Source of the DNA: a virus
DNA length: 64,000 nucleotides
Strand: one strand, 5' to 3'
IMG/VR virus record: IMGVR_UViG_3300024348_000026
Coordinates: 3,530-67,529 of that record
Shown: piece after piece, positions 1 to 64,000 of the stretch
Layout of the letters: each line of letters begins with the position of its first letter
How positions within the stretch are numbered: the first letter of the stretch is position 1
Made by a program: the position numbers and the translations under genes
Notes under the pieces: generated by a model
What the model was told of the DNA's origin: nothing
The model's database searches: none
Seen by the model: the letters and a program-made list of their open reading frames with translations, nothing else

Positions 1-81
1 TAGCCGTTTTTGTAATACTTTTCTAGCTTTTTCATATTATAAGTTTTCAGCGACCAAAATAAATAAACTAGTTACTGCTGT

Positions 82-387
82 TTATCCAAGGAATCCTTTG
101 ACGATCCACCCGATGAGCAGTGCCATCGCTGGCGATAAGAACGCGGTCACTACGCCCGTAACCATTCGCTCCGTTGCGGATTTCTCCTTGTCCTCGTAGC
201 TGTCGTATTGGTGCGTCAGGAACGAGACTACCAGTGCCAGCCCTATTGATTGAGCGATGCCCAGCGGTGCCGCCCCGAACGTGGAGACAATGAACCAGAG
301 CCAGAGCTTGCTCAGTGCGTATCCGCGCCAGATTGGCGAGACGATCAGGGTGACTAGGATGGTGGTGATGATGCCAATTATTTTCAT
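82..387 (-). CDS. membrane protein, GC-richer than its neighbours
   Basis: 101-aa ORF with several hydrophobic segments. Confidence 0.7.
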   Translation of the reverse strand: MKIIGIITTILVTLIVSPIWRGYALSKLWLWFIVSTFGAAPLGIAQSIGLALVVSFLTHQYDSYEDKEKSATERMVTGVVTAFLSPAMALLIGWIVKGFLG

Positions 388-391
388 GTTT

Positions 392-910
392 TCAGTGTTT
401 GGTTGGTGATTCGGAAGAGGATGAACAAGGGGGCGATGGCTCGCGAGTAGTATTTGCTCTATAGCCTACATTGTCAAGATAATTCTTTACTTCTTCGATA
501 TGAACCATAAGATCGCCTGTTACTTCTTGCCATTTTTTATGCCACAAATTGCGTAATTTTAAAGCCTCGTCTCTTTCGTTTTCGGCTTTTGCCGCCATTT
601 CTACAGCGCATTCCCATTTATTTTGCCAGCCTTGGTTTGCTATTTTCAATAGCTCAATCTCCGAATCCATCCATTTGATTCCTTCTACCACGCAAGAATC
701 GCCAATATTAAGTTCTGCCTCTTTAGCATATTTTCCGCCGCATTGAAAAATATCTGCTGCCCTAGCGTGTTTCCTAATGGTGGAGATATAAAAATCTTTT
801 TGTTTTTTTTCTGATTCAAGCTGATCTTCTAGATGCTCGTAATCTTCCGCTTTAACATAGGTGCCAGCGAAATTGTCGTCTGGGAAGGAATAGTAGCGTA
901 GTTTTTTCAT
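392..910 (-). CDS. hypothetical coiled-coil phage protein
   Basis: 172-aa ORF tightly packed in a minus-strand run. Confidence 0.7.
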   Translation of the reverse strand: MKKLRYYSFPDDNFAGTYVKAEDYEHLEDQLESEKKQKDFYISTIRKHARAADIFQCGGKYAKEAELNIGDSCVVEGIKWMDSEIELLKIANQGWQNKWECAVEMAAKAENERDEALKLRNLWHKKWQEVTGDLMVHIEEVKNYLDNVGYRANTTREPSPPCSSSSESPTKH

Positions 911-911
911 A

Positions 912-1154
912 TTAATATAAGTTTAAATATTTGCCGATTTCTTTGACTTCTGGAATTGAGAATGGGTTTATAGAGATCCGTTGCGAAATTTCTCCTTCTA
1001 TAGCTGATTTATAAATATTAAAAAGAAGAATCTTTTGCAGATAATCGGCATTTTGGTGAGCGCCGATTGTGTTGTAGAGGTCATTCATTTTAGCGTCTCT
1101 ATCATTCAAGAGACGAACTGCTTCGGCGTGGGTTGCGTTTTCTGTAGTGAACAT
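912..1154 (-). CDS. hypothetical protein
   Basis: ORF packing. Confidence 0.65.
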   Translation of the reverse strand: MFTTENATHAEAVRLLNDRDAKMNDLYNTIGAHQNADYLQKILLFNIYKSAIEGEISQRISINPFSIPEVKEIGKYLNLY

Positions 1155-1158
1155 TTTG

Positions 1159-1461
1159 TTAGTTTCTTACGGGGCCAATGCTATAACTTTTCCCTTCTGC
1201 CCATGCGATTACTGATGGACTTGAGCGGACATGATCTGCGGTTACTCGTTGGTTAATATTGGAAGAATAAATAGTTTTTTCACCATTTGCTTTCCTCAAG
1301 CTCCAACGAAAATATGCTTTTTTACAAAGTGCTTTCGTTACTTCGATAATATCTCCGTCATGTTCTACGAACAGAGAAGAAGGATCGGGGTTTAATGATT
1401 GCATCCACACACAAGCTTCTGTGGTTTCTACTGGCCCCAAGTTTTGATGAATGAAGTGCAT
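1159..1461 (-). CDS. hypothetical protein (leaderless)
   Basis: ATG 6 nt after a -10 box. Confidence 0.7.
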   Translation of the reverse strand: MHFIHQNLGPVETTEACVWMQSLNPDPSSLFVEHDGDIIEVTKALCKKAYFRWSLRKANGEKTIYSSNINQRVTADHVRSSPSVIAWAEGKSYSIGPVRN

Positions 1462-1467
1462 GGGCGA

Positions 1468-1496
1468 AAGTTAGGCTTTATTGGCTGAGTTGTCAA
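1468..1496 (-). promoter_or_regulatory. sigma70-type promoter
   Basis: TTGACA-N17-TAACTT-N6-ATG. Confidence 0.65.
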
Positions 1497-1737
1497 CCTT
1501 AAAACGATCAAACCACTCATTTAGTTCATAAAAATCAACATCATGCTCCAAATCTTCATAAGAACTCCATTTTTGATCTAAAAACTCAAAACTATAATTT
1601 TCTTCTGATAAAGCTTTTTCTTTTGCTTCAAAGAAATCGACAAAAGCTTGTTCTTTAGAAGAGTATTCGAAAGGGATAAGCGTATCACCATCTGCTTCGT
1701 ATGGAACGCACCAATGATGCTTGAGGATTAGTTTCAT
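1471..1737 (-). CDS. hypothetical protein
   Basis: ORF. Confidence 0.65.
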   Translation of the reverse strand: MKLILKHHWCVPYEADGDTLIPFEYSSKEQAFVDFFEAKEKALSEENYSFEFLDQKWSSYEDLEHDVDFYELNEWFDRFKVDNSANKA

Positions 1738-2216
1738 TTCTTTAGTTTAAAGAAAACAGTGTATAGGCAGAAAAGCGTAAAAACGCCCCCGATAATAATA
1801 AAACAAGTGATCATCTTTTTTTGCAGTTTGGGCAGAGAGGTCTGCCAGTGGATGTATAGTTAATAGAACTCCAACAACGGGGGCATAGGCCGAAGAAATT
1901 AACGACCTTCCCCCAATAGTATCTGACTTTGTAGCCGAAGCGGTTCATGTGCGTAGATTAATGAATTTTATCGTGATCGTCAACATAAAAACGCAGGAAT
2001 GGAAAAATATATTCAAACCCTCCAATACTTTTAAGATGTAAATTATCACCATCAAACCATTTTGTCCAATCGTCCAAAAATCCTCCGTATTTATAAGTAA
2101 AAATAATTTCAAAATATTTAACAGAAATACAAATAGATTTTTCGTCTACGAAATACCGATATTCGTTTTCTATTTTAGACTTAAGCTTTGCTGTAGTTAA
2201 ATAATTCATAAGTCGC

Positions 2217-2573
2217 TTAGTCCCAACACCATCTGTCTTCTTCCTTTGTCCTTTTGTTAGAGGGAATTTTATCAAAGTCTTCTTTTTTGATTGCGTCCCT
2301 CGTCGCAGCCCGATCTTTATCGTTCGAAAACTTTTTAACGTTTTTCCTCATGGATGTTTGCTGACTGGAATCAGTATAGGCGCGAGCAAGTTTAATGATT
2401 TCCCTGCCTGTCCATTCGTTTACTCCGTCCCGTTTGTAACGGGAAGAGTATCTAGCATAATAATTTTCCCACGGTTGTCCATTTACATAAGAAACGGCAT
2501 ACTTATTTTTATTAAGCTTAAGGACTTTAATGCCTCGTTGAAAAAGAATATCTGTTGCTTCTGAAATGGTCAT
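2217..2573 (-). CDS. hypothetical protein
   Basis: ORF. Confidence 0.65.
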   Translation of the reverse strand: MTISEATDILFQRGIKVLKLNKNKYAVSYVNGQPWENYYARYSSRYKRDGVNEWTGREIIKLARAYTDSSQQTSMRKNVKKFSNDKDRAATRDAIKKEDFDKIPSNKRTKEEDRWCWD

Positions 2574-2735
2574 ATATGTATTTATAATAATTTAATTAGC
2601 CAACGGCATTGGCGCTTTTCTACCTAATTTATCTATTTAGAGACTACGGACCATGCTTCCCTGCGTCATTGTATGCTGGGTTTTTCCGTGTTATTCGCCA
2701 AAAACTCAAGACAGTTTTGCCGTTAGCTAAAATTT

Positions 2736-3023
2736 TTAAGATTTAAAGTATCGTTCTGCACGATCTTCAAGATACTCGAAATGTTCGCGAACTACTTCGG
2801 CACGTTCAGGGACCGAGGGAGCAAAAACTTCATCATTCACAAGCTTAGGGTGAGTTGCCCGCGCAAGAGCAATATTGTAGCCGAGCTTCTTGTCGAACTG
2901 GTCTTTTGGGTTACAGAGAGAATATCCAAGCAAATTGTCTTTGCCGTCCCTTACGAGAACAGCAACGCCGATTGGTTTGCGAGTATTAATTTCTCTGATA
3001 TACTTTTTAATTACTGTAGTCAT
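2736..3023 (-). CDS. conserved phage protein (GxSxCxxxDxFxKxxGxxIAxxRA motif)
   Basis: GYSLCNPKDQFDKKLGYNIALARA, a motif common in large phages. Confidence 0.7.
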   Translation of the reverse strand: MTTVIKKYIREINTRKPIGVAVLVRDGKDNLLGYSLCNPKDQFDKKLGYNIALARATHPKLVNDEVFAPSVPERAEVVREHFEYLEDRAERYFKS

Positions 3024-3058
3024 GTTTTTATTAGTTGTCTTGTTGAGGAGATTCTTGA

Positions 3059-3310
3059 TTAAGTATCGGTCTTTGTCAATGCAATTTCTGCATTTCTTTT
3101 TTGGCGCATCTGTTCTTCCATTAGGTCATTTTGTCTTTCAAGTTGATCTGCCATTCTTTTTTGTTGAATTGCGCTTGCTCGTTCGGGCCAAAAATACATT
3201 GATTTATCAGGACTTCTTAGTCCCTTTGTTAAGGAAAAAATCATACTCAAAACAACCACTCCAATAGTTATAGCTACTAAAAATTCTACAAGTGCGAATC
3301 CTTTTTTCAT
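3059..3310 (-). CDS. prepilin-type N-terminal cleavage/methylation domain protein
   Basis: MKKG|FALVEFLVAITI matches the G|FxxxE class III signal. Confidence 0.75.
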   Translation of the reverse strand: MKKGFALVEFLVAITIGVVVLSMIFSLTKGLRSPDKSMYFWPERASAIQQKRMADQLERQNDLMEEQMRQKRNAEIALTKTDT

Positions 3311-3319
3311 CTTAATGTT

Positions 3320-3685
3320 TTATTTATCGACAAACTCTTCTTTTATCATTTTGCGAAACTCTTCTTCGGTGGCAGTCAACCATCTGGCGGGTTCTCCGTC
3401 ATTAAACATCCACTTGCGAACACACATTTTTTGAGAAAGGAATCTGGCGTATGCCGCCTTTTTTAACCTATCTTGTGTGTTGCTGTCGGCAACTAGCCCC
3501 CACATTAGGAGTCCTCGCCATTCGTCCAATTCACGCCGAAAAAGCTCCTCATAAATTGAACCACAGTCAACTTTATCTCTCCCATGATTAGTCAAATAAG
3601 ATTTAACCGCCCCAAAGGCTTCAATCATTTCACGAATATTCATGATTCGCCCAAGAGCTTCTTCGATCATTTGTTTTTTGTTCAT
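3320..3685 (-). CDS. hypothetical protein (leaderless)
   Basis: ORF directly after a promoter. Confidence 0.7.
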   Translation of the reverse strand: MNKKQMIEEALGRIMNIREMIEAFGAVKSYLTNHGRDKVDCGSIYEELFRRELDEWRGLLMWGLVADSNTQDRLKKAAYARFLSQKMCVRKWMFNDGEPARWLTATEEEFRKMIKEEFVDK

Positions 3686-3691
3686 GTGTGT

Positions 3692-3719
3692 ATATTAGTT
3701 TAATAATCAGCCATGTCAA
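3692..3719 (-). promoter_or_regulatory. sigma70-type promoter
   Basis: TTGACA-N16-TAATAT-N6-ATG. Confidence 0.7.
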
Positions 3720-3765
3720 TCTTATATTTGTCGAAAAAATAATAAATTAGCCCTGATGTTCTTGT

Positions 3766-4341
3766 CTAAATTGTATAAAGTTTATTCATCCAATCAACAT
3801 AATCTTGGCTATACCAATAAGGTTTTTCTGTGAATTTCCAAGTTGCTATGTCTTTTTTATCGAATATATAATACATTCTATATTTGTCAATAGGATGGAG
3901 ATATTCAAAAAATGGAAGCTTGCGGCATTCGCAATCTGGATTAATGGCAACTGCGTATGCTGTCATTCCATGAAGGGTGGATGGCAAGAAGTCTGGCGCT
4001 AACGATTTCGCTTGATCCCGCATTTTATAAATTCCAGCTTCACAAAAATGAATTTTATTATATCTTTTTGTGTATTCTTTGCATAGAGCGATACCAATTT
4101 CCGCACCCTGCATAAAATTAAAGTAAGAGTCCCCAAACCATTTAGTTACTGGATGATTTTTATGGGATTCTGCTGGCGCAGACCCTGATTTTGTAAATGG
4201 AAGCTTTTGATTGTCCACTCCGCGACGAATTAAAGCAGAAACCATCATTTGAAAACTTTCTGTGGGCATCTTAACGATGTGTTTGTCACAGTGGAATTTT
4301 GCGCATTCTCTAGGATCGGACGCAAGCAAGAATAAGTTCAT
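3766..4341 (-). CDS. pyrimidine-dimer DNA glycosylase / endonuclease V-like family protein
   Basis: MNLFLL...CDKHIVKM, HKNHP, LCKEYTKRYNKIH, YRMYY..DK motifs; start set from TTGACT-N16-TAAATT-N6-ATG. Confidence 0.75.
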   Translation of the reverse strand: MNLFLLASDPRECAKFHCDKHIVKMPTESFQMMVSALIRRGVDNQKLPFTKSGSAPAESHKNHPVTKWFGDSYFNFMQGAEIGIALCKEYTKRYNKIHFCEAGIYKMRDQAKSLAPDFLPSTLHGMTAYAVAINPDCECRKLPFFEYLHPIDKYRMYYIFDKKDIATWKFTEKPYWYSQDYVDWMNKLYTI

Positions 4342-4443
4342 ACGCAAAATTTATCCTTTTCAGAAAGAAAGTCAAGAAATATCTTCTCCGCGCAACCAAT
4401 TATCAAGTCCGAAGCTCTTCGCAGGAAGAGACGGATTGTTTCT

Positions 4444-4791
4444 TTGTTGGAGTCTATAAGGCTTAATGTGGATTTGATTGATATTGCTCTTGGCTATACC
4501 GACCTAAAGGGACTCGGGAACTTCCCAATGGATGGAACGACACTTGGGGCGAGAGTTTCCGCCTGTGTTGACGACCTCCCCACTGAGACGATCAAGAGTC
4601 TGAATTGGGAGCGATTTCAGTTGGATCATATAGCCTTCAAGGTATTAGTGGCCAATATTACCGTCTCCACCGCTGGTCATATATCGACCAGCCCCAGCCC
4701 GACCCTTTCCGACGTTTCCACTCATCTTCGGGAGACGAAGGAGAATCTGACTTCCCTTTGTTCCCAGATAGTCGCCGCCACAAAGAAATGA
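4444..4791 (+). CDS. hypothetical protein, integron-cassette type (possibly 5'-truncated)
   Basis: GC-richer plus-strand ORF whose stop lies 4 nt before an attC R'' box. Confidence 0.55.
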   Translation: MLESIRLNVDLIDIALGYTDLKGLGNFPMDGTTLGARVSACVDDLPTETIKSLNWERFQLDHIAFKVLVANITVSTAGHISTSPSPTLSDVSTHLRETKENLTSLCSQIVAATKK

Positions 4792-4795
4792 AGAA

Positions 4796-4925
4796 GCACA
4801 ACAAGACGTGCATGGCAATCCCCACTAGCCCATTTGTCGGCGGAGTCTTGCATGGCTTCATGGTTTTACCCCCCGTTTTCGCATCGACACCCGCTAGTTG
4901 GGCTGCCATCACTTTTACGTTAGCC
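4796..4925 (+). mobile_element. attC-like site 1
   Basis: R'' GCACAAC ... R' GTTAGCC; arms ATGGCAATCCCCACTAGC / GCTAGTTGGGCTGCCAT. Confidence 0.75.
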
Positions 4926-5126
4926 TCGGAAAAATGCGATGAGCGCGTTATATCCAAGGACATGCTCCCAGCGTTGGCGCATTTCCTCCCACTGTTCTGG
5001 GCCATTAGCGGGGGCGTGGCATTGCCGTTCCCGCTCGATATTTTCCGCAATCATTACGTCGCGTTCTGCGATCATCATTTGCGTTTGCGCGGCGATGAAT
5101 GCCGCTTTTTCGGTTGGAGTATTCAT
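4920..5126 (-). CDS. cassette-borne hypothetical protein
   Basis: 68-aa ORF filling the interval between attC1 and attC2. Confidence 0.65.
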   Translation of the reverse strand: MNTPTEKAAFIAAQTQMMIAERDVMIAENIERERQCHAPANGPEQWEEMRQRWEHVLGYNALIAFFRG

Positions 5127-5137
5127 AATTCAAAGAT

Positions 5138-5228
5138 GGCTAACAAGTGGATGCTGGCAACGGCGGGGGCTGCCTTGTTGGTTTATTCGGAGTCTAGCGC
5201 CCGCCGCGCCAGATCCTTGTCGTTCGGC
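5138..5228 (+). mobile_element. attC-like site 2
   Basis: R'' GGCTAAC (exact complement of the preceding R' GTTAGCC) ... R' GTTCGGC; arms GGATGCTGGCAACGGCGGG / CCCGCCGCGCCAGATCC. Confidence 0.8.
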
Positions 5229-5296
5229 ATCAGCAATCACACGATTGAATACTAATTCTTGAAGCTTTCGGATTTGAAGCTGTTCTGTCGTGCCGC

Positions 5297-5761
5297 TCAT
5301 TGTTTTAGTTTTTTTATTTCCGCAATATAAGTTATTCCAATATATCCTGAATTTTCAAAAAAATTGCCGATAATTTCGTATCTTTTCCAAAAATAAGGTC
5401 TTGTTGGAGCATGATTGAATTCCCAAAGATCGTAGGGACAAATTTCAGGACTTCCAACATTCAGACCTTTAGACAAGCAAAAAGATCCCTCAAAAAATAC
5501 TACCTGCCCAACAGAATAAGTGTTCGCGGCAGGATTCCACGAACATTTTAAAAAGTCTCCTTCGAAAATTTTATTTCCATTTTTATCCTTTAGACCAGTA
5601 TATTGTTGAAAAACACAATCACTCGCCTCTAAATTAGGATTGCGACAAAGGGAATTAAGAATTCCAACGCAACGAATTCCAATCGCATCAGCGTTTTCGT
5701 AACTTTTTAGATAGGCGTTGATTGATTTAACCCAAACCCTGAATTCAATTTCTCTTTGCAT
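5297..5761 (-). CDS. YopX family protein
   Basis: REIEFRVW...QQYTGLKDKNGNKIFEGD...EIIGNFFEN. Confidence 0.9.
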   Translation of the reverse strand: MQREIEFRVWVKSINAYLKSYENADAIGIRCVGILNSLCRNPNLEASDCVFQQYTGLKDKNGNKIFEGDFLKCSWNPAANTYSVGQVVFFEGSFCLSKGLNVGSPEICPYDLWEFNHAPTRPYFWKRYEIIGNFFENSGYIGITYIAEIKKLKQ

Positions 5762-5767
5762 GGCCAA

Positions 5768-5795
5768 ATTGTAGTTAAAACAGAGAATCAGTCAA
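5768..5795 (-). promoter_or_regulatory. sigma70-type promoter
   Basis: TTGACT-N16-TACAAT-N6-ATG. Confidence 0.7.
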
Positions 5796-5945
5796 GCTCT
5801 TTCTTATCACAAATAAAAAACCCAGATTCCCCCAAAGAAGGAGACACGAAATGTCCATGATACGACAAACCTTTACAATTGCAGCAAACGCTCTTTTTAC
5901 GAAATGCCACTGATTTTCGCTTGTTCTTTTTCTTATTCGGAATCT

Positions 5946-6215
5946 TCATAACTTCTCTCTTAAATATTTTCCATTCCCATCTTTAGAGTCTGCTATTTCG
6001 AAACTATAGCCATTGGTCAAAAGATGATTAACCATTTCTACCGCTAATCTTTTGTATTGTTTGGGAGAAAGATTGTCGATTGAAATGACCCCAAAATCAA
6101 GACCGTAATCTTCAAATTTATATTCCCCGTCCCAATATTCGCCGCCAAAAGAGGAAAAAGAATCATTGGGTTCTGCGGAGGCATAAAGTTCTCCATCATA
6201 TTGTTTTATTTTCAT
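5946..6215 (-). CDS. hypothetical protein
   Basis: ORF; likely start MKIKQY. Confidence 0.6.
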   Translation of the reverse strand: MKIKQYDGELYASAEPNDSFSSFGGEYWDGEYKFEDYGLDFGVISIDNLSPKQYKRLAVEMVNHLLTNGYSFEIADSKDGNGKYLREKL

Positions 6216-6234
6216 TTTTATTGATTTATTAATT

Positions 6235-6286
6235 TTCGAACAGGTCGCTGGATCAGACCTACGGCTGGTCAGCTTGGCTGTTCTGC
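6235..6286 (+). mobile_element. attC-like site 3 (short)
   Basis: R'' TTCGAAC ... R' GTTCTGC; arms GCTGGATCAGACC / GGCTGGTCAGC. Confidence 0.7.
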
Positions 6287-6564
6287 CCGAAAATAGAATC
6301 CAACAGCGCATCTTCGGGTGTTTGTTGCAAAGCTACTGGGCGGCTCGGACACGGAATGATTGAATACCCCTTCCTCCCGTAATTGAGATGACTGCGATCA
6401 ATCGTGGCCTCTTCGTGAGCGTGGCACAGATCGCCTTTAATCCATTCCCATTCGTCCACGCCATGCCACAAAATCAAGAAGGCAGAACAAGCCGTATCAT
6501 CCAACCCCTCGGGGCTAGGTTGTTCGGCGGTGTCAGGCTTCGGGGTGTCGTTTTGGTTTTGCAT
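6259..6564 (-). CDS. cassette-borne hypothetical protein
   Basis: starts inside attC4 (MQNQND) and ends inside attC3. Confidence 0.6.
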   Translation of the reverse strand: MQNQNDTPKPDTAEQPSPEGLDDTACSAFLILWHGVDEWEWIKGDLCHAHEEATIDRSHLNYGRKGYSIIPCPSRPVALQQTPEDALLDSIFGQNSQADQP

Positions 6565-6608
6565 AGTTTTATGGCTTCGATTCGGGGTGGATGGACTCAG
6601 CGTTCTGC
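6482..6608 (+). mobile_element. attC-like site 4
   Basis: R'' GCAGAAC (complement of the preceding GTTCTGC) ... R' GTTCTGC; arms CATCCAACCCC / GGGGTGGATG. Confidence 0.75.
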
Positions 6609-6865
6609 TGAAAATACTCACGAAGGTATCGAAGGACTTGAGCCATTGCGGAATGATCCGATTCATCGTTAATGTCCCAAATCTCCAAGAGGCTTCCGAC
6701 CGTCTCCACGCGCTCCACTTTGCGAGACCATTCGCCATTGTGTTCGGTTTCGTCCACGATGAGAGGTAGATCCTCCCAACGCAGAACAAGGCGTGAGACG
6801 CAATCCCCACCAGTCTCTTGTTGGGTTACGGTTTCTGACTTCGGTATTGATTTATCGTTTTGCAT
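6569..6865 (-). CDS. cassette-borne hypothetical protein
   Basis: starts inside attC5 and ends inside attC4. Confidence 0.65.
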   Translation of the reverse strand: MQNDKSIPKSETVTQQETGGDCVSRLVLRWEDLPLIVDETEHNGEWSRKVERVETVGSLLEIWDINDESDHSAMAQVLRYLREYFQQNAESIHPESKP

Positions 6866-6912
6866 GGTCTTGGGGTATTAGTGGTGGGGATGCGTCCACA
6901 TTGGCGTTCGGC
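6781..6912 (+). mobile_element. attC-like site 5
   Basis: R'' GCAGAAC ... R' GTTCGGC; arms GTGAGACGCAATCCCCACCA / TGGTGGGGATGCGTCCAC. Confidence 0.8.
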
Positions 6913-7169
6913 GGAAAGGGCATCGGCATCCACCACGCCACAAGGTCTTGTCGCACAGGTCGGCAATCGAGGCGAAACTCTCCCTGCATTGGGTTGTGGC
7001 GGAAAAAGTCACCACGGTGCATTGTGATCGGGTAGCGATACCAGGAAGACGCGCCCGTTCCGTCAGCGTAACACCACAGCACATGCTGGAGGTGTTCAGG
7101 AAGTCGCTCGTGAACACTAATCCATGCGGCTGATGACCGACCCTCAATAGCTTTGCTGTTACTTTCCAT
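6852..7169 (-). CDS. DUF551-like phage protein in a cassette
   Basis: WISVHERLP...VAWWMPMPFPP. Confidence 0.75.
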   Translation of the reverse strand: MESNSKAIEGRSSAAWISVHERLPEHLQHVLWCYADGTGASSWYRYPITMHRGDFFRHNPMQGEFRLDCRPVRQDLVAWWMPMPFPPNANVDASPPLIPQDHAKR

Positions 7170-7210
7170 GGTCTGATTCAGTTGCGGGCGTCATAGCCCC
7201 AGCGTTAATT
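7115..7210 (+). mobile_element. degenerate attC-like site 6
   Basis: arms GGCTGATGAC / GTCATAGCC; R' GTTAATT; R'' decayed. Confidence 0.5.
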
Positions 7211-7297
7211 TTTGAGTGCTAAGAATCCAAAAAGCATTAGAGATAAAAGAAATCCAAAAAGAATAAGCTAAAAATTTTGAAAGGTTCATCTTTTATA

Positions 7298-7498
7298 TTA
7301 ATTAAAAGTTGTTTTTACTCCGTTGGCAAATGCGCGGCGAGCATTCTTTCGGCGTTTCCGTTGCGACCTCGGCCAATTAATTTGATCGGGGCGCAGGGGT
7401 TTTGGTTTAAGCTGACTCAAATCGATGCCTAAGTCTGCGAGACTAGGCGTATTATTTAAGATTGCAATACTATCTGTCGTATTCGTGTTCGGACTCAT
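7298..7498 (-). CDS. small basic hypothetical protein
   Basis: ORF downstream of a TTGACA box. Confidence 0.55.
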   Translation of the reverse strand: MSPNTNTTDSIAILNNTPSLADLGIDLSQLKPKPLRPDQINWPRSQRKRRKNARRAFANGVKTTFN

Positions 7499-7977
7499 GT
7501 GTTGTTTTTAGTGTATTTTTAAAATTTGTCAATATTATTCTTCAATCCAGATAATATCTAAGGGAAATTCGTCTTTTGTTCCTAGATATTTGCCATTAAT
7601 CGAATGATGGATGATGCATCCAGTTTTGTCTTTCATTGTCAAGACGCGAAAAGAAGTGCCGATTTTCTCTGTAGTAAGCAAAAGGCCGAATTCTCCGTTG
7701 CGGTATTCTATTCTTTTATGTGTTGTTTTGCGAATGTTCATATTATTTTTTAATTCCGCCTTTCCATAATGGCGTTCCGTCTTTAGTTCTATTGTCTGTT
7801 CCTGTTGTGGAAAAACAACCGTCATAACAATGCCAAGGAGATCTATTTATTCTTTGCCAGTTGTAAGTCATTTTACCACAGCAAGCGCACTTTTTTCGGC
7901 TATTCATTTTTAGTTTAATTGTCTACAGGTGGAGGCATGTAGAATTCGATTGTGTATAGTTTTTCGTTTTTCATAAA

Positions 7978-8244
7978 TTAATAAATTTCAAAAGTCTCCC
8001 ACTCAATTAAACCTTGTGGGTGGAAATTGCACCCTCCGCAACCACCGTCCCGCCCCTGACAAATTATACAGATTTTACTGTATTTTTGTTTATTGAGAGA
8101 ACGGATTATTCCGCTGCCGAGGCAGCTAGAACAGGTTTCGCTTGTGTAATGTCCACAAAATGTATCATAATCTCCTTCTCCATTGCAGGTTGGACAGATA
8201 AGTAGTCCTTGGGATTTTATGAATTCTTTAATCTCTGAGGTCAT
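7978..8244 (-). CDS. DnaJ-type CxxCxGxG zinc-finger protein
   Basis: CPTCNGEG, CSSCLGSG, CIICQG. Confidence 0.7.
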   Translation of the reverse strand: MTSEIKEFIKSQGLLICPTCNGEGDYDTFCGHYTSETCSSCLGSGIIRSLNKQKYSKICIICQGRDGGCGGCNFHPQGLIEWETFEIY

Positions 8245-8322
8245 ATATTTTAAACTCCATTTTTGCCCATTTATCTACAGGCGGCGGCATGTAGAATTCA
8301 ATGTCATATAGTTTTTCTACTA

Positions 8323-8781
8323 TTATCTTTTGGGTCTTAATTTTTCTCGTCTGATATTTAAAGTCGCTTGACTCTTTTTGACTATTTTTAATTTTTCGTG
8401 GAGAGCTTTCGTTTGCTCTAAGATTTTTTTATCTAGCGTTTCTTTTTCTTTATTCAATTCTTCCATCCGACAATAAACAGAAACCTCTTCTTCTGTTGTT
8501 CTGCGGATCATTAAGTCTCCGCAGGAATGCAGACGAGACATTTTTAGATTACTCCCCTTTTTAAGATTAAGCAATCTTTTTTTCTTTGTTTCGGGAAGTA
8601 TTAAAGCTAACTTTTCTATCTGTTCTCTTGTGTAGATAAAATATGGTTTTGTCTCGCCCATTTCATTAATCCAACGAGAGAAATAAGCATGAATAGATGA
8701 TTCGGGTCTGGAAGAATCATAAAAATAATAATAATCGTTCATTTTATTTTTGCACCATGGGCATTTTGTTGATTTTCTCAT
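8323..8781 (-). CDS. hypothetical protein
   Basis: ORF with ATGA overlap. Confidence 0.65.
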   Translation of the reverse strand: MRKSTKCPWCKNKMNDYYYFYDSSRPESSIHAYFSRWINEMGETKPYFIYTREQIEKLALILPETKKKRLLNLKKGSNLKMSRLHSCGDLMIRRTTEEEVSVYCRMEELNKEKETLDKKILEQTKALHEKLKIVKKSQATLNIRREKLRPKR

Positions 8782-9218
8782 TGGCCCTTTAACTCTTTTA
8801 TTGATTCTTTAATTTGCGTGATATGAGCTTCAATACACTCTGCTTCTCTTTTATTTCTGGGAATTGTTCGGCCAAGATTGTTGTCGTGAGTAATCAAGCA
8901 TTCTTCGGCGTATTCTAATCCAAGTTTTAAAGAATCAATGACTGAATAAATTGTATCTTTTTTGACTTGCCAAATTTCAGGAATGTATTCTATCGGGGTA
9001 TATGGCCCCATCTCTGAGCCATAACACATATTTTTAAAATTTAAATATTCTTCGTAAGAGTATTTTAAACAATAACTTTTGTCATGATAATCATCTTTAT
9101 TTTCTTCACTTAATCCAAGAAGCTTATCGCATTTACGGCATTTTGAATAAGGATTTCTTCGGCAGTCTTTCTCCCAATATTTAGGATCTTTATCCCACGT
9201 TTCGTCTTCCACGCTCAT
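8778..9218 (-). CDS. hypothetical protein
   Basis: ORF with ATGA overlaps. Confidence 0.65.
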   Translation of the reverse strand: MSVEDETWDKDPKYWEKDCRRNPYSKCRKCDKLLGLSEENKDDYHDKSYCLKYSYEEYLNFKNMCYGSEMGPYTPIEYIPEIWQVKKDTIYSVIDSLKLGLEYAEECLITHDNNLGRTIPRNKREAECIEAHITQIKESIKELKGQ

Positions 9219-9454
9219 TTGAAAGTTTTGGTTTCTGTTTTTATCTTTGGCTTTCTTGTTAGGATGACCTCTAGCTCAAATTCATCATCTTTTTGCATAT
9301 CAGAAAATAAAGGGTAATCCGTTTCTTCAAAGTTTACTCCAATTCGTGAACAGTTTCTATTCTTGTCAGGATAAGCTAGAAACGAATAGCTATAACTCTC
9401 GCCGCAAAACCACTTGTCATAATTTGTTGAGTGAGATGTAAGACATGCTTTCAT
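9215..9454 (-). CDS. hypothetical protein
   Basis: ORF with ATGA overlaps. Confidence 0.65.
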   Translation of the reverse strand: MKACLTSHSTNYDKWFCGESYSYSFLAYPDKNRNCSRIGVNFEETDYPLFSDMQKDDEFELEVILTRKPKIKTETKTFK

Positions 9455-9831
9455 TTTTTAATTGTGTATTTTTGTTGATTATATAAGTATTGAAAATCGC
9501 CATATTTATCATCAAATAGGTGGCGGCCATAAATATCAAGAACGAATGCTGCCAGAGACGGAGAATAAACTATCCCAGCTTCTCTGGTTTTGTATATTAA
9601 TCCGTTTTCGGTTAGTTGAGTGTCTTCCCAAGAAACAATATCTCCTTCATAAATTTCCTCTCCGCATTCCCCCATAATTCCAGTAGAAAACTGGACGATT
9701 AAATCCTCGTCTTCTTCTCTATGGACGTATCCATCCATAACATCTTCCATAAATAACTGCCCAAGAGAATTTGTAAAATAACCAGAGGGCATATATTCTT
9801 TCGTTTTCTTATTAAAAACTCTAAATTTCAT
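9451..9831 (-). CDS. YopX family protein
   Basis: MKFRVFNK...QFSTGIMGECGEEIYEGDIV. Confidence 0.85.
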   Translation of the reverse strand: MKFRVFNKKTKEYMPSGYFTNSLGQLFMEDVMDGYVHREEDEDLIVQFSTGIMGECGEEIYEGDIVSWEDTQLTENGLIYKTREAGIVYSPSLAAFVLDIYGRHLFDDKYGDFQYLYNQQKYTIKK

Positions 9832-10076
9832 AGCCGAATACTAATCTATATCGATCTGATTGTCCATAAAATACTCGTCCTTATCCATAAATAATTCTTT
9901 CACAGTGTCTTCCGTAAAGGATTGGTGGATTAAAATTGTTTTAAATGTGTCGATCCAATCCTCCAAGCTTGCGTCCCAATTAAGGGTGAGTTGGACACTT
10001 TTAAATCTTGTTGGATCGCTAACGCTGATGGTTATGTTTTTAAGTTGATTGATCATAAACAGAAATTTTTGTAAAG

Positions 10077-10153
10077 TGGTAGCCAAGGCGGGACTCCAAC
10101 CCGCAAAACCTAGTTTCTAAAACTAGTATGTAAAGCAATTCCATCACTTGGCC
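10077..10153 (-). tRNA. tRNA-Leu(TAG), short variable loop
   Basis: acceptor GGCCAAG/CTTGGCT; anticodon arm CTAGT-TTTAGAA-ACTAG; encoded CCA. Confidence 0.85.
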
Positions 10154-29578: not shown

Positions 29579-30583
29579 TTAGCGAAGAGCAACCCAAAGG
29601 CTCCCGCGTTTTTCTTTAATCCAAACGTATCCAAGAGCGTTCAAAGCTGCCAAAACGCAAATTTCGCTAGGGTATTCTGGACTAAAACTGTTTCTGATTT
29701 GTTTGACATAAACAGCGGTAAAACCTTGTGTATATTTCTTGTCCAAGTATGACTGAACACGCTTTTCAAAAGCCGTCAAATCTGTTTGCGCTTTATCCAC
29801 AATTTCTTTGCCTCTACTATCTGTTGCGGGAACTAGAATTTCTTTTTCAACATCGCAAAGAACCTCATAAGCGCAACACCGCAATTTCTTACAGTTATAA
29901 TCAGATGGGACACTCACAACGTCTTTTGGATTAATCTTAACTACGACAAGCTTCCCTTGAGCAAAGTTTGTGCTATAAGTGATTTCTGAGGCGTGAAGAC
30001 CAGACGAGCAATGAATTTCTCTATTATCGTCAACGTCTTTTCTATCAACTTCAATAGCTTCTCCAATTCCATTAAAAATCTTTCCCGAAAAATCAACCTT
30101 GCCTTTTAAGACGTTTGTCTTCGTATTGCCTGAAATACTCCAATAGTTTTTTTGAAGACCTTTATAGGCGAGGAAGCATCCATCCTCAGTTAGCGGCAAA
30201 CCCGTATTTTCTAAAAACTGATACAATTCATTAACAGAACGATAAGACGGATTCATTCTCAAATTCCGCCAAAAATTCAGAAAAAGAGTAATCGGCAGTC
30301 CTTCTTTCCGCAAAGAATTAATCTTGTCCACTAAGACTTGAGGGAGCAATTCTCCATCAATAAAAACTTGGTCACCCTTAAATTCAAAGCCTTCTTTTTT
30401 AGCTTCTTCGGCAAAAACTTTTGATTCATTGAGGACATTCTCAATAGCCTCGTCTTGCTTTGATTCTGGAAGATCAAAAGCTTTCAAGATTTTGGCATAT
30501 TTGACTGATCCTTTTTGGACGTTGGTTGGTCTTCCATTGTGAAAAAACGTAATGGAGGAGTTTGAAATGATATATTTGGCCAT
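29579..30583 (-). CDS. rIIB: rIIB-like protein
   Basis: NPS..SVNELYQFL...LTEDGCFLAYK...VDDNR..CSSGLH...KINPKDVVSVPSDY..KLRCCAY. Confidence 0.85.
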   Translation of the reverse strand: MAKYIISNSSITFFHNGRPTNVQKGSVKYAKILKAFDLPESKQDEAIENVLNESKVFAEEAKKEGFEFKGDQVFIDGELLPQVLVDKINSLRKEGLPITLFLNFWRNLRMNPSYRSVNELYQFLENTGLPLTEDGCFLAYKGLQKNYWSISGNTKTNVLKGKVDFSGKIFNGIGEAIEVDRKDVDDNREIHCSSGLHASEITYSTNFAQGKLVVVKINPKDVVSVPSDYNCKKLRCCAYEVLCDVEKEILVPATDSRGKEIVDKAQTDLTAFEKRVQSYLDKKYTQGFTAVYVKQIRNSFSPEYPSEICVLAALNALGYVWIKEKRGSLWVALR

Positions 30584-30845
30584 TTTTTTTGTTGTTGTTG
30601 TTTTTTTTAATTGTAATTTACTAGTCCCAAATGTTCAAGAATATCTTTCGCCAATTCTGCTCTCCCGTCTTTGGTTCCTAACGAATAGGCAAGCCAAGGG
30701 TCCATGTGACCAATGCTACCATCCTTAAGATCTTCGACTTCTCTTTGTGACAGATTAATAAGAAGCTGAATCATTGAGTGGGAAATGTCGAACTTGTCTC
30801 TCATGAGCAAATGATATTGAAAATTTCAGAGTTTGTCAAGATAAT

Positions 30846-32780
30846 TTAGATCATTTTCATTACTGCTCTGAATTCTTCCCTAGTCAACTTTGGTTTTGAG
30901 CTATGGTAGCTTTCGTGAGCGTGAGAGAAAGAAGTAAAGATTTTCGATCTTGTCGTTTGCTGGTTAAGGATAGAGTTCCAAAACTTAGTTACGCGATCTG
31001 CGTTTTTTTCTTTTTTAATCAAAATAATTGTTTTGGGATTGAAAGACAACCAAGGTTTTAGGGCTTTTGCTATCTTCAACCGTGCGGCGTTTTTCTCTTG
31101 TTCCTCTTTCGCCCACCCTTGAACGAGTTTTGAGTGTTCATCGCGCCCATGAATAAAAAATCCCAAGGCTTGGATGGCTTGGCCAAGCTCTTCCGATTGG
31201 CAACTCCATGCATTATATCTACTTTTGCCGCCGATATGGATAGAAATCCACTCCAATCTGCTTGTATCTTTTTTGTCGATTACTTTTTTCTTTTCTTCTT
31301 TGACCCATTCAATGAGTTTTGTGAGATCGGGTTCAGCAGGAAGGCTAAAACGTTCTTCTCGCACAAGATTAAGAAATCCTACGGCATTGAAGCTTCCTTT
31401 TTTACGATCCTTGCAATAAACCGCATAGGTTTTTTCGCGTTTCCCTTTTGGAAAGGGAATCCTTTTGACCGTCATTGTTTGAAAAATGCCATCAATTTCA
31501 GTGGCTGCTTCTGGCGAAAGTTTAGAAAATTTAGATTGGCAACCAATATAATAACTTTCATTATTTTGAATGGCAAAAGTTCGCAATTTGGACCTCCAAT
31601 AATCTGTAGCCGAATTGTCTGGAATTAAAACAAGGATTGGTTTGTCGTTTTTAAGGACAAAGTTATGTTTTTTGTCTTCTTTAAAATTGGAAACGGTAAT
31701 CCCCCCTACAAAGCCCCAAGTTTCTTTAAAAATAGAAGCGAGTTTTGCTTGAAACATTGAGCCGTCGCACCATTTATGAAAAGAGATTTCGCCCAAGTTT
31801 TCATCGATAACATCTTTTAGGGGTTTGGATTTGATGTGAGCAAAATCTTTTTGGGTTAGCTCCTCTAAGATATTATGAATTTTGCTTTTATAGTTTTGAT
31901 TGAGAGGGGTGTCGTGAAAAGACTCGCGGGAAAGAGCAACCGTCATAGCTCCAATTGGAACATTGATTGCTAGAGTGTGATCATTCTTTACCAAAAAGCC
32001 ATCGGGAATACTAAAGCTTTCGTATTTAACGCCGCCCATTTGCAAGACTGCTTGATTATTTTTGTCGCGCCCAAAGATGCCGCCAAAAAGAGTGAATTCG
32101 ACGTTGTTAATTACTTCTTTTTTGGCAATTGGATAAGGCTTAATCTCGTCTCCCAAAACATTAGCCTCGATGTTATGAGGGGAAAAATAAACAAAACTCC
32201 TGATTTCGTTGGAGAATTTGTTTGAGTCTAAGTGCTGAATTGGGACAACCACTTCCAGACCTGTTTCATTGGATGGTTCAGAATGAGTTTTGTAAATAAA
32301 CCCATTGGAAGACCCTTTGTTGTCGCCGCCAAGAGCGCAGGTATAAATTGTTTTTTCTCCTCCAAAATAAGAGATCACATAATAAGAATCAGTATAGCAG
32401 AATCCAGATTTTGAACCCACGCCGTAGGCTCCGACTGTTTTGTTATCGTTGAGTTTGGTGGAGTTTCCATACATTCCAAAAACCGTGCGAATTTCTTTTT
32501 CTGAAAGTCCTTTTGCGAAATCTCGCACAAAAAATTCACGCTGATTGTCCATTTCTCGCAATCCAATTTTTACAGGATCAGCGATATTGAATTTGAGGTG
32601 CTCGTCTAATCCGTTACTCGTAAATTCACGGACGACAGCTAGGGCTTTGTTGGTATAAATTGTATCTCGCAAATGTTTTGCCATTTGCAAGGCTGCTTCT
32701 TGACTCATCCCCATAATTGAGGCATTTGGATCAAAACCATCGGAAACAATAAGAGGAGAGGCGGAATTAGCGATTTTCAT
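30846..32780 (-). CDS. rIIA: rIIA-like protein (GHKL ATPase N-terminus)
   Basis: IYTNK.AVVRE..SNGLD.H, RDFAKGLS, STK, GAYGVGSKSGFCYTD; next to rIIB. Confidence 0.85.
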   Translation of the reverse strand: MKIANSASPLIVSDGFDPNASIMGMSQEAALQMAKHLRDTIYTNKALAVVREFTSNGLDEHLKFNIADPVKIGLREMDNQREFFVRDFAKGLSEKEIRTVFGMYGNSTKLNDNKTVGAYGVGSKSGFCYTDSYYVISYFGGEKTIYTCALGGDNKGSSNGFIYKTHSEPSNETGLEVVVPIQHLDSNKFSNEIRSFVYFSPHNIEANVLGDEIKPYPIAKKEVINNVEFTLFGGIFGRDKNNQAVLQMGGVKYESFSIPDGFLVKNDHTLAINVPIGAMTVALSRESFHDTPLNQNYKSKIHNILEELTQKDFAHIKSKPLKDVIDENLGEISFHKWCDGSMFQAKLASIFKETWGFVGGITVSNFKEDKKHNFVLKNDKPILVLIPDNSATDYWRSKLRTFAIQNNESYYIGCQSKFSKLSPEAATEIDGIFQTMTVKRIPFPKGKREKTYAVYCKDRKKGSFNAVGFLNLVREERFSLPAEPDLTKLIEWVKEEKKKVIDKKDTSRLEWISIHIGGKSRYNAWSCQSEELGQAIQALGFFIHGRDEHSKLVQGWAKEEQEKNAARLKIAKALKPWLSFNPKTIILIKKEKNADRVTKFWNSILNQQTTRSKIFTSFSHAHESYHSSKPKLTREEFRAVMKMI

Positions 32781-61131: not shown

Positions 61132-61141
61132 GTTTTTATTC

Positions 61142-63712: not shown

Positions 63713-63713
63713 T

Positions 63714-64000
63714 TTAGATTTCAATATCAAAGAGTTGTTTTTTAAATATTCTATATGTCATTTCGCAATCGTATGAGGCATCGTGCAAGCGCTTTTCGTC
63801 AAAAGCAATGTCATATTTTTTAAGTAGGGCTGATTGGGAGGCTTTTACTTTCTTATCTCGGTGATTTAAAAGTCTATATTGCCAACTGATTAGGTCATCA
63901 GACTGAATTGGAATTTGCTTTGCAATGGCCATCGCTAAACATCTTGTGTCTAGGATTCTATCAATAAACGAATAATCAGACGGCAATCCTATCAATTTCC
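63714..64000 (-). CDS. DEDDh 3'-5' exonuclease (epsilon-like), partial at window edge
   Basis: LDT..LA...LHDASYD ExoIII motif. Confidence 0.75.
   Translation of the reverse strand, partial: KLIGLPSDYSFIDRILDTRCLAMAIAKQIPIQSDDLISWQYRLLNHRDKKVKASQSALLKKYDIAFDEKRLHDASYDCEMTYRIFKKQLFDIEI

What the first reader, a model, noticed from the sequence alone, without database searches (positions are those of the whole stretch)
4444..7210. Integron attC cassette array in a phage, with ORFs translated through the attC sites
Six attC-like imperfect palindromes, all in one orientation, with R''/R' boxes and extrahelical bases. The cassette rule holds three times: R' GTTAGCC (4919) matches the next R'' GGCTAAC (5138), and GTTCTGC (6280, 6602) matches GCAGAAC (6482, 6781). 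The cassettes look GC-richer than the phage. One ORF (4444-4791) has the canonical orientation. The others are antisense, co-directional with phage transcription, and three start inside one attC and stop inside the next. No integrase lies in the window. Inference: the phage uses a host or distant IntI to gain and shuffle accessory genes, and the attC loops supply translation starts.
Basis: partly seen in the sequence, partly recalled or inferred. Interest (0 to 1): 0.74.

Follow-up and report, generated by a model that had tools for sequence, protein, structure and literature searches.

The report
Backward integron cassettes in a phage
Two short GC-rich stretches of this marine phage genome are rows of integron-type mobile gene cassettes whose genes run backwards through the folding recombination sites, so phages trade small accessory genes with the machinery best known for spreading antibiotic resistance in bacteria.

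Summary
Four are strong (E 3e-16 to 7e-8) and two marginal (0.01, 0.015). The same model finds 6 of 7 class 1 integron attC sites in control plasmids, on the bottom strand.

The sites have attC geometry: AAC/GTT boxes, a 4-5 nt spacer, and bulged bases at positions 16 and 23/24, the last a T. The cassette rule holds for 31 of 38 neighbouring sites across related arrays.

Genes lie on the attC bottom strand, backwards relative to bacterial integrons. They usually start and stop inside the attC loops. The plus-strand ORF is real but truncated.

The 67.5-kb record, about 53% complete, has no integrase. Four other contigs (three viral, one phage-like contig in a Verrucomicrobiales MAG) carry an IntI-like gene next to such arrays.

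CALINs in phages are published (Qi et al. 2023), so this is a new variant of a known kind. Activity in this phage is unproven. This scan noted reversed phage cassettes before on other DNA.

The parts
4405..4791 (+). Cassette A gene in canonical (top-strand) orientation. It is a 5'-truncated copy of a ~168-aa protein family with an N-terminal hydrophobic stretch. The listed ORF is 4444-4791; homology in the same frame runs back to about 4405.
   Evidence: 12 homologs at 63-91% identity, 154-169 aa. The alignment shows the window copy lacks the first ~54 residues. The upstream extension is my reading against the consensus.
4796..4925 (-). attC A, 130 nt, same sequence family as D and E. The strand given is the bottom strand.
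   Evidence: R2 49.8 bits, E 1e-8. Bulged G at position 16. Scanner score 22.
4920..5126 (-). Cassette B ORF, 68 aa, lying wholly inside cassette B on the bottom strand. Its stop TAA is the TTA of GTTAGCC at the crossover.
   Evidence: No family hit. No homolog search was run.
5138..5228 (-). attC B, 91 nt, with arm sequences unrelated to those of A, D and E.
   Evidence: R2 58.3 bits, E 1.6e-10. Fold z -3.7. Bulges C16 and T23.
5130..5300 (-). Backbone ORF of 56 aa. It overlaps the YopX stop, reads right through attC B, and stops 4 nt before the cassette B ATG.
   Evidence: That it is a real gene is inferred.
6235..6286 (-). attC C, a short 52-nt site at the end of array 2. It holds the stop of ORF D. 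Marginal.
   Evidence: R2 21.8 bits, E 0.01. Below my scanner's threshold.
6259..6564 (-). Cassette D ORF, 101 aa. It starts in the loop of attC D and stops in attC C.
   Evidence: Five homologs at 73-91% identity keep the body and change the tail after ...QN.
6482..6608 (-). attC D, 127 nt.
   Evidence: R2 46.1 bits, E 6.5e-8. T23 bulge. Boxes GCAGAAC/GTTCTGC.
6569..6865 (-). Cassette E ORF, 98 aa. It starts in the loop of attC E and stops in the loop of attC D.
   Evidence: Only its attC-encoded first 24-28 residues recur in other viral contigs.
6781..6912 (-). attC E, 132 nt, 85% identical to a site in viral contig L014.
   Evidence: R2 85.3 bits, E 2.8e-16. Bulges T16 and T23 with 6 bp between them. 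112 of 132 columns identical to L014 3954-4082.
6852..7169 (-). Cassette F ORF, 105 aa, a DUF551 protein. The domain match ends at the AAC of attC E. The last 17 residues are read from attC E.
   Evidence: Pfam PF04448, E 3.3e-7, residues 15-88.
7109..7210 (-). attC F, degenerate. It has a good 5' box, arms and 3'-arm bulges, but no GTT box at the normal spacing. Its top-strand R' G|TTAATT is the array/backbone joint.
   Evidence: R2 21.0 bits, E 0.015.. GC drops at 7204/7205.

Best explanation
The region holds two clusters of genuine integron attC sites without an integrase (CALINs), embedded in an AT-rich, probably virulent, marine phage. Array 1 runs from about 4405 to 5228 (cassettes A and B). 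Array 2 runs from 6235 to 7204 (attC C, then cassettes D, E and F).

The + strand is the attC top strand. The phage's coding (minus) strand is the recombinogenic bottom strand. All cassette genes except truncated A therefore lie backwards relative to classical cassettes.

Read along the coding strand, a cassette is: C of nnnnAA|C, 5' arm, loop, 3' arm with the bulged bases, GTTnnnn box, gene body, nnnnAA. In D, E and F the loop carries the stop of the upstream gene and the ATG of the cassette's own gene. Each protein then has a leader read from its own attC and a short tail read from the next cassette's attC. The row is read as one operon with stop and start close together.

Shown here: the site identity, the orientation, the cassette rule, the ORF layout, exchange of whole cassettes at AA|C between related contigs, and the link of this attC family to IntI-like genes in phage contigs.

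Inferred: the GC-rich cassettes came from the cassette pool of GC-rich phages (probably of Verrucomicrobiota) that carry their own IntI-like integrase. They were inserted by such an integrase. The loop ATGs are used, with ribosomes from the upstream gene opening the hairpin.
For: Independent model hits. Reciprocal control on class 1 integrons: 6 of 7 annotated cassette ends found, all on the intI1 coding strand.

attC geometry as given by Nivina et al. 2016 (passages). Of 47 phage-type sites, 36 have a single bulge at 15-17 on the arm opposite AAC, 37 have a bulged T at 23-25, and only 10 have a 5'-arm-only bulge. The control attC sites fold alike.

Covariation on 36 sites: 81% of cells paired against 62% in shuffles (0 of 500 shuffles reach it) and 33-50% when slid. 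All 9 pairs of the L-box helix show compensatory changes.

Cassette rule: 31 of 38 adjacent pairs are complementary at all 4 outer bases, against 3 of 52 within a site.

The L016/L018 methylase cassette is alike (24-30 of every 30 columns) from nnnGAA|C to GCTGAA|C and unrelated outside.

Of 44 inter-site bodies, 20 are open only on the bottom strand and 0 only on the top strand. DUF551 and methylase hits lie on that strand.

The L031 integrase's best family is TIGR02249, its best solved relative is VchIntIA, and it is 35.5% identical to IntI1. Arrays lie directly upstream in 4 of 4 contigs of this integrase clade that hold upstream DNA.

Contigs from three or four runs bridge every array/backbone junction.
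Against: There is no integrase in the record, but it is only about 53% complete.

Sites C and F are marginal, and F lacks a proper 3' box. The left end of array 1 is a truncation inside a gene, not a G|TT joint. The F-to-E and C-to-B boxes do not match.

The boxes are mostly GTTC/GAAC rather than GTTRRRY/RYYYAAC. The first bulged base is C in 27 of 36 sites, not the usual G.

The phage integrases score 229.9 bits, below the TIGR02249 cut-off of 265.

No excision joints appear in the laid contigs. No close relative of the backbone could be fetched to show an empty site.

IntegronFinder and HattCI could not be run. Use of the loop ATGs rests on ORF geometry alone.
Confidence: 0.8

Rival explanations
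1. Dead relics. The arrays are true attC cassettes but were picked up once by illegitimate or homologous recombination from another phage. They are no longer recombined in this phage. Only the genes matter now, and the hairpins persist by inertia or as translational couplers.
For: No integrase in the record. Cassette A's gene is truncated at the array edge. F is degenerate and C marginal. No excision joints.
Against: A, B, D and E keep full geometry and perfect inter-site box matches. Short contigs in other runs carry F's cassette or look-alikes of the B and E sites in other contexts, with breaks at the box edges: 7206, 6781, 5138/5227. The record is only half complete.
Confidence: 0.3
2. The hairpins belong to an integron-like system run by another enzyme, such as a small Xer-like recombinase, as this scan has noted for Bacteroidota phages. 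They are not IntI substrates.
For: Scan notes describe such systems on other DNA (unchecked AI notes). The boxes deviate from RYYYAAC/GTTRRRY, and the first bulge is C. The tyrosine recombinases of two array-bearing contigs are not IntI.
Against: The adjacent enzyme in the L031, L156, L198 and L199 contigs is IntI-like, not Xer-like: TIGR02249 229.9 bits against XerD 124, and VchIntIA is the best solved relative. The site model also finds class 1 attC sites. Bulge positions match IntI requirements.
Confidence: 0.07
3. The palindromes are phage RNA structures at gene junctions (translational coupling or processing signals) that only resemble attC by chance. They have nothing to do with DNA recombination.
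For: Stops and starts sit in the loops. In 23 of 33 sites the stop lies within -7 to +11 nt of the ATG. All sites lie on the transcribed sense strand.
Against: An RNA hairpin does not explain why the outer box bases match the neighbouring site (31 of 38) and not their own partner (3 of 52). It does not explain why homology between contigs breaks at AA|C. It does not explain the adjacent IntI-like genes.
Confidence: 0.03

Closest known systems
CALINs (clusters of attC sites lacking an integron integrase) in bacteriophage genomes: Qi, Rajabal, Ghaly, Tetu and Gillings 2023, Front Microbiol, PMC9892861 (read: abstract, section 3.4, passages)
   Same: attC arrays without intI in phages, including virulent ones. 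DNA methyltransferase cassettes occur. 5 of 6 phage attC sites were recombined by IntI1.
   Different: That work reports 17 CALINs and 3 complete integrons (host-derived or class 1) among 10,705 complete GenBank phage genomes. The sections I read describe cassettes as typically oriented like bacterial ones. Here nearly all genes lie on the attC bottom strand and start and stop inside attC loops. The same attC family sits beside an IntI-like gene in phage contigs. I could not see their supplements, which list all sites.
Classical and sedentary chromosomal integrons (IntI, attI, attC; Vibrio VCR-type arrays)
   Same: R boxes with AAC/GTT, unpaired central spacer, bulged bases at 16 and 23/24, variable loop, and the cassette rule. 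There are families of look-alike 125-135-nt attC sites, as in chromosomal arrays. In L031 the geometry is classical: intI's 5' end faces the array and intI is coded on the attC bottom strand.
   Different: Cassettes are usually transcribed away from intI from the Pc promoter (Cury et al. 2016, passage). Here they are transcribed toward intI, with no need for Pc. The ORFs run through the sites.
Short ORFs in attI1 (ORF-11) and in attC sites that couple translation of downstream cassettes (review by Fonseca and Vicente 2022, PMC8876359, passages)
   Same: Termination-reinitiation across an attC hairpin helps the next gene.
   Different: Those are tiny helper ORFs on the top strand. Here the cassette's own gene starts in the loop, on the bottom strand.
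Inverted toxin-antitoxin cassettes in chromosomal integrons (seen as search listings only; otherwise recalled)
   Same: The cassette gene lies antisense to the array.
   Different: Those are the exception in an array and bring their own promoter. Here inversion is the rule, and genes depend on read-through.
Promoter-early stem-loop (PeSL) mobile cassettes of T4-type phages
   Same: Small phage accessory genes bounded by repeated stem-loops and shuffled between phages.
   Different: PeSLs are conserved promoter-plus-hairpin sequences recombined by homology. Here sequences vary, structure is kept, and the joints follow the integron G|TT rule.

Membership tests
Integron attC site | R' and R'' boxes with conserved 5'-AAC and GTT-3' triplets at the two ends of an imperfect palindrome of 57-141 nt | tested here: met
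   AAC(G) and (CTT)GTT are invariant in 36 of 36 aligned sites. Lengths are 52-146 nt. The outer box bases are mostly GAAC/GTTC, not the RYYY/RRRY consensus.
Integron attC site | Unpaired central spacer of about 5-6 nt between the R and L boxes | tested here: met
   Typically 5 nt on the 5' side and 4 nt on the 3' side; A, B and E are 3-5 and 2-4. D and F are irregular.
Integron attC site | Extrahelical bases on the arm opposite the AAC triplet of the bottom strand: position 16, optionally 20, and a conserved T at 23/24, with a 6-bp stem between first and last (Nivina 2016) | tested here: met
   36 of 47 sites have a bulge at 15-17 and 37 of 47 a T at 23-25. B and E have 16 and 23 with 6 bp between. 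The first base is C in 27 sites and G in 7, which differs from 'usually G'.
Integron attC site | Structure conserved while sequence varies | tested here: met
   Covariation score 0.472 against 0.163 in shuffles (0 of 500). 21 of 25 pairs show changes on both sides.
Integron attC site | Cassette rule: the box at the start of a cassette complements the far box of its own attC, so neighbouring sites match and a site's own boxes need not | tested here: met
   31 of 38 adjacent pairs are 4/4, against 3 of 52 within a site. In the window, 3 of 5 pairs.
Integron attC site | Detected by the curated attC covariance model (IntegronFinder, HattCI) | not testable with these tools
   The model is not on hand. 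Rfam returned no attC match in a permissive scan (E up to 10) of 3000-9000. Reciprocal test: the model built from phage sites finds 6 of 7 class 1 attC sites on the bottom strand.
Integron attC site | Recombined by an integron integrase as folded bottom strand | not testable with these tools
   Needs the attC x attI conjugation assay.
CALIN | Two or more attC sites on one strand less than 4 kb apart, with no intI nearby (Cury 2016, passage) | tested here: met
   Six sites on one strand within 2.4 kb. No PF00589 or TIGR02249 hit in the 67.5-kb record.
Complete integron | intI with the IntI-specific insertion, next to attI and the array | tested here: not met
   Not met in the window. In the relatives L031, L156, L198 and L199 an IntI-like gene adjoins the array. 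It scores 229.9 bits, below the TIGR02249 cut-off of 265, but aligns without a break to VchIntIA across the IntI-specific region. attI and promoters were not tested.
DUF551 (PF04448) | Score over Pfam's gathering cut-off | tested here: met
   ORF 6852-7169 (-): 31.5 bits against 22, profile positions 1-68 of 68.

The most novel reading that the evidence does not exclude
A lineage of phages, probably of Verrucomicrobiota, owns a native integron. It has an IntI-family integrase at the end of an early-gene operon, preceded by attC cassettes whose genes lie on the attC bottom strand.

Each attC loop carries the stop-start junction. The recombination site thus also serves as the translation-initiation region and as a leader and tail coding segment.

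This cassette pool (DUF551 proteins, DNA methylases, many unknowns) is shared across unrelated phages, including the 37%-GC rIIA/rIIB phage of this window. That would make integron recombination a general route of accessory-gene exchange among phages, not only a capture of bacterial integron fragments.
Probability: 0.55. Interest if true: 0.8.

Novelty: new variant of a known kind. Interest (0 to 1): 0.68.

Why it matters
Integrons are treated as bacterial devices. The one paper on phages that I found reports rare CALINs and captured host integrons.

Here the attC family, the cassettes (DUF551, methylases) and the IntI-like enzyme are all phage-borne. The coding logic is turned round. Genes sit on the recombinogenic strand, are read toward the integrase, and use the attC loop as their start region.

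If confirmed, this gives three things. It is a concrete mechanism for the mosaic 'hyperplastic' regions of small genes in phage genomes. It is a natural example of attC sites embedded in coding sequence. It places the sense (non-template) strand, not the template strand, as the recombinogenic one, which may link transcription to cassette mobility.

It also shows that searches which expect cassette genes on the top strand may misread such arrays.

Tried and rejected
Rfam returned no attC or other credible match for 3000-9000.

Plain minimum-free-energy z-scores are unimpressive for most sites, because the loops are long. Only B (z -3.7) and E (-1.8 and -2.5) stand out. I therefore used an anchored arm scan and covariance models.

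I first read the A/D/E direct repeats as paralogous N-termini. They are attC sequence read in different frames.

I proposed that removing 4447-5222 would restore a 50-aa phage gene (note). This is rejected, because 4405-4446 belongs to the truncated cassette A gene.

Backbone relatives are too distant to show empty sites: phrog_624 gene 32-46% identity, YopX 43% or less over long matches.

The genome contigs pattern scan gave 120 stretches. My scanner found a true array only in L031, and the rest look like chance hits in GC-rich genomes.

The bodies of cassettes B, D, E and F have no relative among the fetched loci. P0010 has no relative in viral contigs. The region has no blastn match in GenBank phages. 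The metagenome scan for P0001 gave only L193, where the D body is fused into a longer ORF without an attC. There is no attC in the first 3.7 kb of the record.

The laid contigs show no joints. Bins without cover say nothing.

The bona fide IntI genes of MAGs G006 and G007 have no such sites at scanner score 18 or more within their roughly 1.5-kb flanks.

I found no paper on bottom-strand cassettes with loop starts, or on a phage-native IntI clade, in searches. These are few, word-based searches. Supplements were closed.
Full report
WHAT THE WINDOW IS. The window is bases 3530-67529 of a 67.5-kb IMG/VR virus record that CheckV rates about 53% complete. It is a real phage: rIIA- and rIIB-like proteins, a tail fibre J-like protein, a DNA polymerase and a Lon-type protease, plus a tRNA array noted by others. 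Overall GC is 37%. Genes around the finding are packed on the minus strand. They include a phrog_624/Pyr_excise-like gene (3766-4347) and a YopX gene (5297-5767).

THE OBSERVATION. Two patches, 4405-5228 and 6235-7204, have 52-53.5% GC against 35-37% beside and between them. They hold six imperfect palindromes of the form nnnnAAC, spacer, long bulged stem, loop, stem, spacer, GTTnnnn.

A scan of my own (AAC and GTT 35-135 nt apart, banded alignment of the arms) finds three sites at score >=22, all inside 4300-7400. Forty block shuffles gave 0.8 per window and none in that region.

The decisive test avoids circularity. I collected similar sites from other contigs and built model R2 from 53 hits that include no window sequence. 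I then searched the whole window on both strands without filters. The next hit scores 14.3. B's arms are unrelated in sequence to those of A, D and E (66 of 132 alignment columns identical to E), so its score should come mainly from the shared boxes and the structure.

ARE THEY attC SITES? I took the defining features from the introduction of Nivina et al. 2016 (passages):
- On the bottom strand the AAC triplet lies in the 5' box.
- The extrahelical bases lie on the opposite arm, at position 16, sometimes 20, and 23/24.
- The last of these is a conserved T, and a 6-bp stem separates first and last.
- The central spacer is 5-6 nt and the length is 57-141 bp.

I folded 47 phage-type sites with only the AAC/GTT pairs forced:
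- 36 have a single-base bulge at 15-17.
- 37 have a bulged T at 23-25.
- 10 have any bulge confined to the 5' arm.

Window sites B and E have bulges exactly at 16 and 23 with 6 bp between them. Six class 1 attC sites folded by the same script look the same.

Over 36 aligned sites the stem covaries. 81% of cells are paired against 62% in shuffles (0 of 500 reach it) and 33-50% when the partner is slid. All nine pairs of the L-box helix show compensatory changes.

As a reciprocal control I ran R2 over two plasmid regions with annotated class 1 integrons. It reports six hits at E < 0.01. Each lies at the 3' end of an annotated cassette gene, so 6 of 7 such ends are found. All are on the intI1 coding strand, which is the attC bottom strand, opposite to the cassette genes. 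The modelled strand, which is the coding strand in the phage arrays, is therefore the bottom strand.

Two departures from the textbook remain. The boxes are mostly GAAC/GTTC rather than RYYYAAC/GTTRRRY. The first bulged base is C in 27 sites and G in 7.

THE CASSETTE RULE AND MOBILITY. I first noted that the rule is symmetric and cannot fix orientation.

Across all arrays I collected, the 3' box of a site complements the 5' box of the next site at all four outer bases in 31 of 38 adjacent pairs. A site's own two boxes do so in only 3 of 52 sites (L017's terminal duplicate is counted twice). This is what integron recombination predicts, and an ordinary hairpin does not explain it.

It is answered by L016 against L018. 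A methylase cassette is alike (24-30 of every 30 columns) from nnnGAA|C, through its attC and gene, to GCTGAA|C. The two contigs are unrelated on both sides.

At the protein level, five relatives of the window's D protein keep the body but change the tail right after ...QN (AAC). Three others share only the attC-encoded leader.

Short contigs of coded runs X1, X3 and X4 carry F's cassette, or look-alikes of the E and B sites, in other contexts. Homology ends at 7206 (GTT|), 6781 and 5138/5227. These contigs are low-depth, so this is only a hint.

GENE LAYOUT. Minus-strand ORFs run 7169->6852 (DUF551, Pfam E 3e-7, with the domain ending at the AAC of attC E), 6865->6569 and 6564->6259. Each starts in one loop and stops in the next. 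Cassette B's 68-aa ORF (5126->4920) starts 11 nt after attC B. Its stop is the TTA of GTTAGCC. A backbone ORF (5300->5130) reads through attC B and stops 4 nt before that ATG.

The pattern is general in the family:
- 42 of 52 sites contain an ATG whose ORF runs beyond the 3' box.
- 41 of 52 contain the stop of an upstream frame of at least 40 codons.
- In 23 of the 33 sites with both, the stop lies within -7 to +11 nt of the ATG, often as ATGA.

My ORF caller takes the first such ATG. The starts are not verified.

Of 44 inter-site bodies, 20 are open only on the bottom strand and none only on the top strand. Seventeen are open on both strands and 7 on neither. A, D and E share DNA but D is read in another frame, so the constraint is on the DNA, not on the peptide.

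The plus-strand ORF 4444-4791 is a real gene in canonical orientation. It has twelve homologs of 63-91% identity and about 168 aa. The window copy lacks the first ~54 residues, and the homologous frame runs back to about 4405 (and my reading). Array 1 therefore begins with a truncated cassette, not with a G|TT joint. The right ends of both arrays are clean: G|TTCGGC at 5222 and G|TTAATT at 7204, where GC falls.

WHERE THE CASSETTES COME FROM. The leader of ORF E and a pattern taken from attC E led to 11 viral stretches of 50-61% GC with arrays of the same architecture. They also led to one 4-kb contig of a Verrucomicrobiales MAG (L031). attC E is 85% identical to a site in L014.

In L031 the array (DUF551-like gene, unknown gene, C5-methylase, unknown gene) is followed within 30 nt by an integrase. 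Its best family is TIGR02249, integron integrase, at 229.9 bits (cut-off 265; XerD 124). Its best solved relative is VchIntIA (E 6e-42), aligned without a break across the IntI-specific segment. It is 35.5% identical to IntI1. A minor head protein follows it.

Relatives of this integrase occur in four viral contigs. The three of them that hold upstream DNA (L156=L196, L198 and L199, the last matching only residues 1-140) have attC arrays directly upstream on the integrase strand, as L031 does. The fourth, L157, has a small terminase and an endolysin downstream.

The geometry between intI and the attC strands is the classical one. Only the cassette genes are turned, so the array is read toward intI. 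Other array-bearing contigs have ordinary phage integrases that are not IntI.

THIS PHAGE. No tyrosine recombinase is present in the record, and about half of the genome is missing. Contigs from runs of three or four studies bridge every array/backbone junction: 4270-4741, 5117-5365, 5753-6459 and 7008-7304. The arrays are therefore not an assembly chimera. One of these runs may be the source sample.

No excision joints were seen. Whether the arrays are active here is open. I put 0.3 on their being relics.

COMPARISON WITH PRINT. Qi et al. 2023 (PMC9892861; abstract, section 3.4 and passages read) screened 10,705 complete GenBank phage genomes. They report 3 complete integrons, one In0 and 17 CALINs, methylase cassettes, and IntI1-mediated recombination of 5 of 6 phage attC sites. 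An attC array in a phage is therefore known.

Cury et al. 2016 state that cassettes are most often transcribed away from intI (passage). A 2022 review describes short helper ORFs in attI and attC that couple translation (passages).

Three things appear in none of my searches: genes placed as a rule on the bottom strand, starts and stops in the attC loops, and an IntI-like clade resident in phage genomes with phage genes as cassettes. I could not see supplements.

Unchecked notes of this scan report similar reversed phage cassettes on other DNA (e1-5971010).

VERDICT. This is a new variant of a known kind, with interest 0.68.

Noticed in passing
L195 (GenBank KX853513.1, Virus Rctr41k) 4680-10101: A deposited 'partial' phage genome has an IntI-like gene annotated xerD (34% identical to the L031 integrase). 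It is followed by six ~130-nt weak attC hits (15-20 bits), all on the minus strand between plus-strand genes that include two methyltransferase-like genes. This looks like a complete integron of the inverted-integrase type with canonical gene orientation. The paper by Qi et al. excluded partial genomes and does not name it in the main text.
   Followed up: partly
L017 (IMGVR_UViG_3300021075_000209) 1-4068: This 4-kb viral contig consists almost only of cassettes: ten model hits, the first and last being the same site. Its ends repeat (5-102 equals 3946-4043). It may be a circular multi-cassette molecule or an assembly wrap-around.
   Followed up: no
window 5130-5300 (-): A small backbone ORF overlaps the YopX stop, then reads through the whole of attC B as a low-complexity tail, and stops 4 nt before the next ATG. 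It may be a phage gene whose end was replaced when the array arrived.
   Followed up: partly
L193 (Ga0114976_10035071) 2282-2986: The body of the window's D protein occurs as the C-terminal part of a 234-aa ORF that still shows ...STPCSAF... at the joint. No attC is detected there, which suggests a cassette fused into a longer gene after decay of its site.
   Followed up: no
G006 and G007 (Verrucomicrobia MAGs), loci L148-L155: Both MAGs hold a bona fide IntI (395.6 and 333.6 bits). They also hold 13 and 10 further matches below the family cut-off (14 and 11 in all), many of them short pieces. This suggests many integron remnants or prophage copies.
   Followed up: no
window 29579-32780 (-): rIIA- and rIIB-like genes lie side by side. 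A tail fibre J-like 1448-aa protein lies at 45658-50004, and a Lon-type protease next to the DNA polymerase at 58705-63730. This points to a large virulent-type phage.
   Followed up: no
all arrays: The family has extended invariant motifs, AACG at the 5' box and CTTGTT at the 3' box, which put a G.T pair next to the crossover. The class 1 control sites show the same AACG...TTGTT.
   Followed up: no
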